DNA from: Escherichia coli
GTDB lineage: Bacteria; Pseudomonadota; Gammaproteobacteria; Enterobacterales; Enterobacteriaceae
Assembly (NCBI RefSeq): GCF_011045215.1
Contig: NZ_CP049201.1
Length of the DNA stretch: 64,000 nucleotides
Strand: one strand, 5' to 3'
The notes beneath the pieces are model-generated. The model was not told the DNA's origin, did no database searches, and saw nothing but the letters and a program-made list of their open reading frames with translations. Made by a program: the position numbers and the translations under genes. Positions 49,558 to 50,530 of the stretch are shown piece after piece. Within the stretch, counting starts at the first letter, position 1. The number at the start of each line of letters is the position of its first letter.

Positions 49558-49842
49558 GAGTAAGATATGGGGTTTGGTCGTTGTTAATGAGCAGGACAAT
49601 CATGACCGCCAACGACTAGATTCTTCCTTGGTTTATGTTGGTGCGCATAATGTATATTATGTTAAATCGTATCTGAGTGATACGAAGTGATTTTCCGGTA
49701 GTCGTTATTCGTTCAGGGTTCCAGAACTTAAGCCTCTCCTCTTTCATAATTGGCCTGTGCATGCCGGATATAGGCTGGCTGGTATGCAGATTTGCCGTTT
49801 GCCGCATCTTCCCAGCGTTGAAGACTCAAGCTGGTAAACCGC

Positions 49843-50097
49843 GTGCAAATGAGCACGCCCTCTTTCCATCAACACTTCAGGCAGCTTGCGGGAATGAGTC
49901 CACTCCGGTATCAGAAATGGCTACGTCTCAATGAAGTCAGGCGAACGATGCTGAATGAACATTACGATGTCACCACAGCAGCCTATGCTGTCGGTTACGA
50001 AAGCTTATCCCATTTCAGCCGGGAATATTTGCGGATGTTTGGAGGGTCACCTAAGAGAGATATTACCAGGTTAAGAAAGTCTGTCGGTCAGCTTTAA
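49843..50097 (+). pseudogene. yneL: AraC-family regulator remnant (yneL-like, C-terminal helix-turn-helix only)
   Basis: 84-aa ORF holding only the second AraC helix-turn-helix (…AYAVGYESLSHFSREYLRMFGGSPK…) with no N-terminal domain. Confidence 0.5.
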
Positions 50098-50530
50098 TAA
50101 ACCCTGCACTTATCTGTTTAGAGCAATTCGGTGTTAGTTACATCAGGCAAACATTAACCATAGCTAATGATTTTTAGCCATATAAACCATTAGTAGCCCT
50201 TGACCTTTCCTGACACTTCCCTTGTTCGCAATAATATTCTGTTTAGTCACGGTTTATAAATAACATGCATAATGAAATCGTCATGTTATTTAGCGACATA
50301 AAATGTTTTTGCAAATACTCTCTTCAACAAGTGCAGCAATAAACTTGTTGTGATTAGGTGTCCTTGTGATTTAAAGATATTATCGTTCTTCGTGAAATGT
50401 AATAACTCTGGGAACTATATTCTCAGGGCAACAACCAATCAAGAATGATTCTTGTTTTATAAGCAATAACAGAATGACTTAATTGTTAACTCTCTTTATT
50501 CAGCTACTTAAATATAAATTTTGGAGAATT

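What the first reader, a model, noticed from the sequence alone, without database searches (positions are those of the whole stretch)
49600..50100. AraC-family regulator reduced to its C-terminal helix-turn-helix
Only the second helix-turn-helix of an AraC-type regulator remains, sitting between the decayed hipA and the fimbrial operon. It is probably the remnant of a regulator that once controlled the adjacent fimbriae.
Basis: inference. Interest (0 to 1): 0.2.

Follow-up and report, generated by a model that had tools for sequence, protein, structure and literature searches.

The report
Known yneL pseudogene beside dif

Summary
Window 49829-50097 (+) encodes only the C-terminal 89 codons (216-304) of a ~304-aa AraC-family regulator (Pfam HTH_18, E=3e-20). 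An in-frame stop lies just upstream, and no N-terminal piece exists anywhere in the 64-kb window. This is the E. coli pseudogene yneL, annotated in K-12 and called "missing N-terminus" by PGAP.

The interpretation (former regulator of the adjacent F9 fimbriae) is not supported.
- **Intact relatives:** they are 88% identical in protein sequence, carry an AraC_N (PF06719) sensor domain, and always sit divergently from a 365-aa alpha/beta-hydrolase gene, sometimes with an Fe-alcohol dehydrogenase. None sits next to fimbriae.
- **Partner scraps in the window:** hydrolase codons 226-245 lie at 49769-49828 (-), fused directly to AraC codon 216. The start of a DUF2255 gene lies at 49712-49748 (-).
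- **dif:** 49640-49667 is the exact 28-bp dif site. The intact module sits on the same side of dif in Citrobacter and Enterobacter, and a frameshifted copy does so in Klebsiella-like genomes.

So yneL is the scar of a dif-adjacent hydrolase/regulator module collapsed by deletions. Different E. coli lineages keep different scraps, some frameshifted and some with no AraC piece, so the fragment is not being maintained. Ordinary and already known; low interest.

The parts
49829..50097 (+). 3' fragment (codons 216-304 plus stop) of an AraC_N-type AraC-family regulator gene; this is the E. coli pseudogene yneL
   Evidence: blastn 240/270 (89%) and tblastn 77/88 (88%) against the intact 304-aa gene of E. 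coli BS90R-A. tblastn with five full-length relatives matches only here. PGAP annotates 'helix-turn-helix domain-containing protein, incomplete, missing N-terminus' and K-12 annotates 'yneL: pseudogene'.
49843..50097 (+). Longest ORF inside the fragment (84 aa, GTG start; ATG two codons later); no Shine-Dalgarno-like sequence seen by eye and no promoter-like site between dif and the ORF
   Evidence: ORF list. Pfam HTH_18 E=3.3e-20. In-frame TGA at 49819-49821. The promoter scan finds no site at 49400-50200 on the + strand.
49769..49828 (-). 60-nt internal scrap (codons 226-245 of 365) of the alpha/beta-hydrolase gene that is the divergent partner of the intact regulator; it abuts the AraC breakpoint
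   Evidence: tblastn 18/20 identical, E=6e-9. blastn 93-98% identity to the hydrolase genes of L006, L008, L009 and L010. Alignment.
49712..49748 (-). Scrap containing the start of a DUF2255 gene, the next gene of the module in other genera
   Evidence: blastn 89-94% over 31-37 nt to L006 5718-5754 and L010 2967-2997. tblastn MKEERLKFWNPE vs MKEERFMFWNYE, E=7e-4. Pfam DUF2255 for the intact L010 gene. This is a short, weaker match.
49640..49667 (+). dif, the 28-bp XerC/XerD chromosome dimer-resolution site (XerC arm on the hipA side, XerD arm on the yneL side)
   Evidence: Exact match to GGTGCGCATAATGTATATTATGTTAAAT, used as the experimentally confirmed E. coli dif in PMC3025954. It is unique in the window. 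K-12 has dif in the hipA-yneL intergenic region. All 5 KOPS motifs in the window point towards it.
48966..49557 (+). hipA with an internal deletion of about 730 nt (context)
   Evidence: ORFs at 48909-49115 (contains MPKLVTWMNNQ...) and 49048-49557. Pfam Couple_hipA (weak) and HipA_C at 2e-20. Intact hipA is 1,323 nt in EC1515.
50244..50273 (+). f9 (Fml) fimbrial promoter, about 150 nt downstream of the yneL stop (context)
   Evidence: Promoter scan gives TAGTCA-18-CATAAT. This matches the 5'-RACE-mapped -35 TAGTCG / -10 CATAAT with an 18-bp spacer and a start site 251 nt upstream of the major subunit ATG, from Wurpel et al. 2014, PMC3966885. The major subunit ATG is at 50531.

Best explanation
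The feature is the non-functional pseudogene yneL. It is the last 89 codons of a ~304-codon AraC-family regulator of the AraC_N (PF06719) type. Its ancestor belonged to a small module: DUF2255 gene, alpha/beta-hydrolase gene, sometimes an Fe-alcohol dehydrogenase, and a divergently transcribed regulator. That module sat on the XerD-arm side of the chromosomal dif site. In the E. coli lineage, several deletions collapsed roughly 3-5 kb of this module to about 390 bp. One deletion joined hydrolase codon 226 to regulator codon 216. That removed both 5' ends, the shared promoter region, and the regulator's whole sensor domain plus helices 1-2 of its DNA-binding domain. The leftover has no visible promoter or ribosome-binding site, cannot sense a ligand and lacks half of its first HTH. 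By analogy with other divergently arranged AraC_N regulators, the ancestral gene most likely controlled the divergent hydrolase/dehydrogenase genes, not the F9 fimbriae that now lie downstream. Shown here: the identity and extent of the fragment, the flanking scraps, the dif site and the conserved module. Inferred: the order of the deletions, the ancestral regulatory target and the lack of present function.
For: Fragment extent and family. Known pseudogene: (H47 'yneL: pseudogene'). The intact 304-aa relative sits beside the hydrolase and Fe-ADH in E. coli BS90R-A. The same regulator-hydrolase pair occurs in Citrobacter youngae, two Enterobacter species and K. michiganensis at 93-96% protein identity. 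Hydrolase and DUF2255 scraps lie directly upstream in the window. An exact or near-exact dif lies 0.1-5 kb to the same side of the module in L009, L010, L011, L004-7 and L013. Signs of decay: the remnant carries more amino-acid changes (dN 0.067-0.077 against intact copies, versus 0.012-0.048 among intact copies; dN/dS about 0.5 between two E. coli alleles, though based on only 14 substitutions). The K-12-type allele is shorter and frameshifted. B2-type strains lack the AraC piece entirely. BL21-type strains have it fused to a fimbrial gene (also PMC9308461). A parallel, independent truncation of the same gene occurs next to dif in a Klebsiella-like genome (L013).
Against: In the window allele the 84-codon frame is still open, with no indels over 270 nt. 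A review of microarray compendia reports that yneL probes vary across conditions (PMC9308461), so transcription cannot be excluded. dN/dS on 88 codons is too noisy to prove neutrality. The module is not at dif in every genome: K. michiganensis L012 has no dif within 6 kb, and the E. coli BS90R-A copy is in an island at tRNA-Arg. An ancestral position next to dif in E. coli therefore rests on the scraps plus three other genera, not on a full phylogeny. The regulatory target of the intact protein has not been tested anywhere.
Confidence: 0.88

Rival explanations
1. One reading: the fragment is what is left of a dedicated activator of the adjacent F9 (ydeQRST/fml) fimbrial operon, like the Rns/CfaD/AggR-type AraC regulators found next to other fimbrial operons.
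For: Physical adjacency: the fragment's stop codon is about 150 nt upstream of the f9 promoter and on the same strand. AraC-type regulators next to fimbrial operons are common (general knowledge).
Against: The closest intact relatives have an AraC_N sensor domain and a divergent hydrolase or Fe-ADH partner, with no fimbrial genes within 6 kb in five genomes of four genera. Scraps of that partner survive beside the fragment. Homology to the module ends within about 12 nt after the stop codon, so the f9 region is a separate block. f9 has a mapped promoter repressed by H-NS, and no AraC-type factor is mentioned in that study. APEC O18 (B2) keeps the f9 major-subunit gene and its upstream region with no AraC fragment.
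Confidence: 0.04
2. The 84-aa ORF is a functional mini-protein: a stand-alone partial AraC DNA-binding domain that binds DNA through its intact second HTH, or that interferes with full-length paralogues.
For: The reading frame is open in the window allele and in many strains (clusters of 82-91-aa proteins with tens to hundreds of members). Pairwise dN/dS between alleles is about 0.5 rather than 1. Array signal is reported for yneL.
Against: There is no promoter-like site and no Shine-Dalgarno-like sequence upstream. Helix 1 and most of helix 2 of the seven-helix domain are missing. Residues invariant in all intact copies are replaced (A to V, L to T, T to L, E to G). The commonest E. coli allele (K-12 type, roughly 60% of an evenly spaced sample) is shorter and frameshifted. 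About 1,230 of 5,426 genomes have no detectable AraC piece. Deleting yneL in K-12 left the one tested phenotype (growth by constitutive stable DNA replication, cSDR) unchanged.
Confidence: 0.04
3. Variant of the best explanation: the DUF2255-hydrolase-regulator module did not descend vertically at this spot. It arrived as cargo of a mobile element that targets dif (an IMEX-like element using XerC/XerD, or another dif-side integrating element), and yneL is the scar of that element.
For: The same module lies on the XerD-arm side of dif in Citrobacter, Enterobacter and Klebsiella-like genomes, and in scrap form in E. coli, at 93-97% protein identity. The sequence right of dif differs in every genus, whereas about 55 nt left of dif are conserved. 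The module also occurs in an integrase-bearing island at tRNA-Arg in 86 E. coli genomes. Other elements clearly land at this dif: tyrosine integrases, an ISNCY transposase and a Shedu gene in E. coli EC09, and a different cargo (an NAD(P)H-binding oxidoreductase) in B2 strains.
Against: No second dif-like site (up to 9 mismatches of 28) flanks the module in any locus or in the 64-kb window. No recombinase or phage genes lie within the module. Synonymous divergence among copies is substantial (dS 0.3-0.6), so the transfers, if any, are not recent.
Confidence: 0.12

Closest known systems
E. coli K-12 pseudogene yneL (b1506), 'putative HTH-type transcriptional regulator, AraC family, C-terminal fragment'
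   Same: Same locus (hipBA - dif - yneL - f9/ydeT), same gene, same orientation. RefSeq annotates it as a pseudogene missing its N-terminus.
   Different: The window carries a longer, unframeshifted allele: 270 nt from codon 216, preceded by a hydrolase scrap. K-12 keeps about 210 nt, has a 1-nt deletion, and is preceded by a different scrap (the spacer downstream of the hydrolase gene).
AraC_N (PF06719)-type AraC-family regulators, e.g. E. coli YqhC, activator of the divergent aldehyde reductase gene yqhD
   Same: The closest intact relatives (304-326 aa) have AraC_N plus HTH_18 and are transcribed divergently from oxidoreductase or hydrolase genes, the same layout as yqhC-yqhD (PMC8262776). 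That YqhC itself carries PF06719 is from memory and was not tested here.
   Different: The window fragment has lost the AraC_N domain and part of the DNA-binding domain. The effector and target of the intact relatives are unknown.
Fimbria-linked AraC regulators (Rns/CfaD/AggR type)
   Same: They belong to the AraC/XylS superfamily and are located next to a chaperone-usher operon.
   Different: The nearest relatives of this fragment are of a different subfamily with a different N-terminal domain and non-fimbrial partners. No direct sequence comparison with Rns-type proteins was run.
dif / XerCD chromosome dimer-resolution site and the plastic terminus region around it
   Same: Exact 28-bp dif at 49640-49667, with converging KOPS. 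Insertions and deletions pile up on its XerD-arm side in different strains.
   Different: dif is a neighbour of the finding, not the finding itself. Nothing suggests that yneL contributes to dif function: in K-12, deleting yneL left dif-dependent growth intact.

Membership tests
AraC/XylS family DNA-binding domain (Pfam HTH_18 / HTH_AraC) | About 100-residue, seven-helix C-terminal domain with two helix-turn-helix motifs | tested here: inconclusive
   HTH_18 at E=3e-20 covers profile positions 6-76 of 80. The second HTH, the linker helix and the recognition helix of the first HTH are present. Helix 1 and most of helix 2 are absent. It is a member by descent, but the domain is incomplete.
AraC/XylS family (full regulator) | N-terminal sensing/dimerisation domain in the same polypeptide | tested here: not met
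   An in-frame stop lies at 49819-49821. No AraC_N-like coding sequence occurs in any frame of the window. The upstream DNA is not homologous to the 5' part of the gene.
AraC_N (PF06719) subfamily | The closest full-length relatives carry the AraC_N domain | tested here: met
   P0122, P0125 and P0130 match AraC_N at E about 1e-48. The intact 304-aa E. coli/Citrobacter/Enterobacter/Klebsiella copies are 88% identical to the fragment. Pfam was not run on those copies, and their N-terminal halves were not formally compared with P0122; a resemblance was seen only by eye.
E. coli yneL pseudogene | Position between hipA/dif and the f9 (ydeT) operon, same strand, AraC-type C-terminal fragment | tested here: met
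   Annotated regions of EC1515, MSB1_8B and K-12 AG100. MG1655 'yneL: pseudogene'. The gene order yneL - dif - hipA is given in the literature.
Fimbrial-operon AraC activators | Intact orthologues linked to, and regulating, a fimbrial operon | tested here: not met
   Five loci with intact orthologues show no fimbrial genes within 6 kb. f9 regulation, as published, involves H-NS and temperature. Regulation itself cannot be tested with these tools.
dif site | 28-bp XerC arm, 6-bp centre and XerD arm matching the experimentally defined sequence; single copy; KOPS polarity converging on it | tested here: met
   0 mismatches and unique in the window. The sequence is as in PMC3025954. There are 3 KOPS on the + strand to the left and 2 on the - strand to the right. 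The GC-skew profile is not decisive at this scale.
IMEX (integrative element exploiting Xer) | Cargo bounded by dif and a second, often degenerate, dif-like site | tested here: not met
   No second site with up to 9 of 28 mismatches occurs in the window or in nine other loci that carry dif. More degenerate sites would be missed.

The most novel reading that the evidence does not exclude
The DUF2255 / alpha-beta-hydrolase / (Fe-ADH) / AraC_N-regulator module may be cargo of a so far undescribed dif-side integrating element that has spread among Escherichia, Citrobacter, Enterobacter and Klebsiella. If so, yneL, present in about three quarters of E. coli genomes, would be its fossil, and the XerD-arm flank of enterobacterial dif would be a general landing pad for islands.
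Probability: 0.1. Interest if true: 0.4.

Novelty: already known. Interest (0 to 1): 0.12.

Why it matters
It matters little in itself: yneL is a catalogued pseudogene. Three small points are useful.
- **Annotation:** yneL should not be read as a decayed fimbrial regulator. Its origin can be stated precisely as codons 216-304 of an AraC_N regulator that was paired with a hydrolase.
- **The "intergenic" DNA:** the stretch between dif and yneL is a patchwork of gene scraps, and the scraps differ between E. coli lineages. They can serve as markers for the deletion history of the terminus region.
- **dif:** the most important functional element inside the reported coordinates is the dif site, which the first-stage reading missed.

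Tried and rejected
- **Degraded N-terminal AraC sequence upstream (49558-49828).** By eye, several frames seemed to echo the intact protein (GYR, IxWL, VE), and MAFFT suggested a 5-nt insertion. Local and anchored alignments scored no better than shuffles. The resemblance was then explained: that stretch is the antisense of a hydrolase-gene scrap.
- **N-terminal half displaced elsewhere in the window.** tblastn found only an unrelated AraC gene at 20775-21062, at 23% identity.
- **Structured RNA between hipA and the fimbrial operon.** Rfam gave nothing at E<=1.
- **Full-length copy at this locus in any E. coli.** None was found. The 86 genomes with a full-length gene all hold one near-identical copy of the module, located at tRNA-Arg/intS in the example inspected.
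- **IMEX signature (second dif-like site).** Not found.
- **GC-skew switch at dif.** Not clear at 8-kb resolution; KOPS orientation was used instead.
- **Genome-contig scan.** It returned only 4 loci because of the exact-peptide seeding, so the species distribution is under-sampled.
- **Hairpin right after dif (49667-49685).** Not conserved in K-12, so it was not pursued.

Full report
**What is at the coordinates.** The region 49600-50100 holds an 84-codon ORF on the + strand (GTG 49843, stop 50095-50097). It matches Pfam HTH_18 at E=3.3e-20 (profile positions 6-76 of 80) and HTH_AraC at 1e-7. The same frame carries a TGA at 49819-49821, and the other frames upstream are full of stops. tblastn with five full-length relatives hits only 49828-50094, corresponding to residues ~216/218 onward of 304-326-aa proteins. 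No N-terminal piece turns up elsewhere in the 64 kb. hipB is intact. hipA (48966-49557) has lost about 730 internal bases, leaving an N-terminal stub and a 169-aa HipA_C piece. A complete chaperone-usher operon starts at 50531.

One refinement applies. Alignment to solved AraC-type DNA-binding domains (3mn2, 3oio, MarA 1bl0) shows the domain spans residues ~196-294 of the intact protein. The fragment starts at 216, or at 220/222 for the ORF. It lacks helix 1 and most of helix 2. It keeps the recognition helix of the first HTH, the linker helix and the whole second HTH.

**It is a known pseudogene.** The 961 bases around the fragment match 5,396 of 5,426 complete E. coli genomes. RefSeq annotates the ORF as [quoted passage not shown] in EC1515, MSB1_8B and K-12 AG100, and as "yneL: pseudogene" in MG1655 (H47). 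The literature treats yneL as a pseudogene of unknown function (PMC9308461; bioRxiv 10.1101/2025.09.02.673814).

**What the intact gene looks like.**
- In the 5.8-billion-protein collection, every close relative of the fragment listed among the best 120 of 233 hits (the rest were not shown) is itself short, at most 154 aa.
- An exhaustive profile search with a longer (128-aa) Klebsiella-type version found full-length relatives of 300-326 aa at 54-70% identity. Those tested carry an AraC_N domain (PF06719, E about 1e-48) in front of the HTH domain.
- A DNA search then found an intact 304-aa gene in 86 E. coli genomes. It is 89% identical in DNA and 88% in protein to the window fragment over its last 270 bases, with no similarity upstream of 49829.
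- In the example inspected (strain BS90R-A) this copy lies in an island next to tRNA-Arg and intS. It is transcribed divergently from an Fe-alcohol dehydrogenase (a pseudogene in that strain) and a 365-aa alpha/beta hydrolase. The 86 module copies are about 99% or more identical to one another.
- A scan of one genome per species found the same gene, at 93-96% protein identity, in Citrobacter youngae, Enterobacter vonholyi, Enterobacter sp. MGH 24 and Klebsiella michiganensis.
- The only neighbour shared by all of them is the divergent alpha/beta hydrolase. A DUF2255 gene follows the hydrolase in L010, L012 and the Klebsiella-like loci. No fimbrial gene is present in any of these loci.

**The partner's scraps are still in the window.** On the minus strand immediately upstream of the AraC breakpoint, 49769-49828 encodes LSLQRWEDAANGKSAYQPAY. 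This matches hydrolase codons 226-245 at 18/20 identical residues (E=6e-9) and 93-98% DNA identity. At 49712-49748 a 37-nt piece matches the start of the DUF2255 gene at 89-94%. The junction reads hydrolase ...GAAGACTCA | AGCTGGTAAACC... regulator, with at most one base of microhomology.

Measured against the Citrobacter layout, this single junction removed about 1.57 kb. Against the layout that includes the Fe-ADH, it removed about 2.8 kb (coordinates). The loss covers both 5' ends and the shared intergenic control region. This also explains the faint similarities I first took for degraded AraC sequence, which failed shuffle tests.

**The dif site.**
- While tracing a 27-mer shared between the window and a Klebsiella-like locus, I found that 49640-49667 reads GGTGCGCATAATGTATATTATGTTAAAT. 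This is the experimentally defined E. coli dif (PMC3025954), and K-12 has it in the hipA-yneL spacer.
- It is unique in the window, and all five KOPS motifs point towards it.
- The same 28-mer, with 0-2 mismatches, lies to the same side of the module and within 0.1-5 kb of it in Citrobacter (L009), both Enterobacter loci (L010, L011) and the Klebsiella-like loci (L004-7, L013). In L004-7 the regulator is itself frameshifted.
- About 55 nt on the XerC-arm side are recognisably conserved between E. coli, Citrobacter and Enterobacter. The XerD-arm side differs in every genus.
- In L013 the regulator is independently truncated near codon 245, about 120 nt from dif.

The simplest reading is that the module sat beside dif in the ancestor of the E. 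coli locus and has been eroded by deletions in the plastic terminus region.

**Evidence that nothing maintains the fragment.**
- E. coli lineages keep different scraps.
  - The window type keeps the hydrolase scrap plus 270 nt of the regulator.
  - The O157 type shows only the 270-nt regulator piece at megablast sensitivity.
  - The K-12 type is the most common in an evenly spaced sample, roughly 60% of it. It keeps about 210 nt with a 1-nt deletion, preceded by the spacer from downstream of the hydrolase gene.
  - The BL21 type has the fragment fused to a fimbrial gene.
  - In APEC O18, and by coverage pattern in ST131-type strains, there is no AraC piece. APEC O18 has an NAD(P)H-binding oxidoreductase and a different hydrolase scrap instead.
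- About 1,230 of the 5,426 genomes have no detectable piece.
- Intact copies are under strong purifying selection (dN/dS 0.03-0.16). The remnant has accumulated replacements at positions invariant in all intact copies. dN/dS between two E. coli alleles is about 0.5, though on only 14 substitutions.
- No promoter-like site or Shine-Dalgarno-like sequence precedes the ORF.

**The fimbrial hypothesis.** The operon downstream is f9/fml. Its 5'-RACE-mapped promoter (-35 TAGTCG, -10 CATAAT, 18-bp spacer, start site 251 nt before the major-subunit ATG) corresponds to 50244-50273 in the window. The published regulation is by H-NS and temperature, with no AraC factor mentioned. Homology between the fragment and intact copies stops within about 12 nt of the stop codon. 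The f9 block is therefore a separate neighbour at the 3' end of a gene whose control region faced the other way. Together with the family assignment and the surviving partner scraps, this makes a former fimbrial role unlikely. I put it at about 4%.

**Comparison with known things and novelty.** The fragment is yneL. Its ancestor worked like the AraC_N regulators that control divergent detoxification or oxidoreductase genes, with yqhC-yqhD as the E. coli example (PMC8262776). That YqhC has the PF06719 domain is from memory. dif and the plasticity around it are textbook. The new points are only matters of detail. They are the exact origin of yneL, the mosaic of scraps between dif and yneL, and the recurrence of the module next to dif in several genera.

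The most novel reading not excluded is that the module is cargo of a dif-side integrating element. Against it, no second dif-like site bounds the module and it contains no recombinase. I give it about 10%.

**Verdict.** The feature is already known and ordinary.

Noticed in passing
window 49640-49667: Exact 28-bp chromosomal dif site (XerC/XerD target) lies inside the finding's coordinates, 83 nt after the hipA stop. All five KOPS (GGGNAGGG) in the window are oriented towards it: + strand at 35428, 46609 and 47389; - strand at 56293 and 60852.
   Followed up: yes
window 49766-49769; L016 4670-4764; L009 5014/5015: The hydrolase scrap kept by the window allele begins within 0-3 nt (TAT) of where the different hydrolase scrap kept by B2 strains (APEC O18) ends. 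Two lineages thus share one breakpoint inside the lost gene but keep opposite sides of it. This hints at one ancestral event, such as an insertion there followed by deletions in both directions. It remains unexplained.
   Followed up: partly
L015 (E. coli EC09) 416-6028; L004-L007 and L013 left of dif: Other elements sit directly on dif. An ISNCY-family transposase gene abuts the XerC arm, and the first base of dif is changed, in E. coli EC09 and in the Klebsiella-like loci. EC09 also has a Shedu nuclease gene on that side, and two tandem tyrosine integrases start about 200 nt from the XerD arm. From memory, IS1202-group (ISNCY) elements are reported to target dif-like sites; this was not checked.
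   Followed up: no
L003 (K-12 AG100) 3206-3316: In the K-12-type allele, window 49763-49887 is replaced by about 110 nt containing a perfect hairpin (GCAGTGTCTGTCGCATAGACACTGC). The segment matches the spacer just downstream of the hydrolase gene in Enterobacter, Citrobacter and Klebsiella, so it is probably that gene's terminator.
   Followed up: partly
L013 6139-6465; L014 153-641: The same regulator is independently truncated in other bacteria. In the Klebsiella-like genome L013 it is cut near codon 245, about 120 nt from dif. In a metagenome contig (L014) it is cut near codon 190. In four Klebsiella-like assemblies (L004-7) it is split by frameshifts, which may be long-read errors.
   Followed up: partly
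window 48966-49557: hipA carries an internal deletion of about 730 nt while hipB (48682/48700-48966) is intact. Other strains show an intact hipBA, an internal stop (K-12 AG100), or near-complete loss of hipBA with only the last ~45 nt of hipA left (MSB1_8B).
   Followed up: partly
window 43069-48489: There is an intact 1,806-aa autotransporter ORF ('ECSE_1600 family autotransporter' in RefSeq). It is frameshifted or truncated in K-12, MSB1_8B and EC1515.
   Followed up: no
window 50244-50273 and 50531-56892: The complete F9 (Fml) fimbrial operon has the published promoter (-35 TAGTCA, -10 CATAAT). In K-12 a deletion from about window 50352 into the usher gene has removed the major subunit, the chaperone and the usher N-terminus.
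   Followed up: partly
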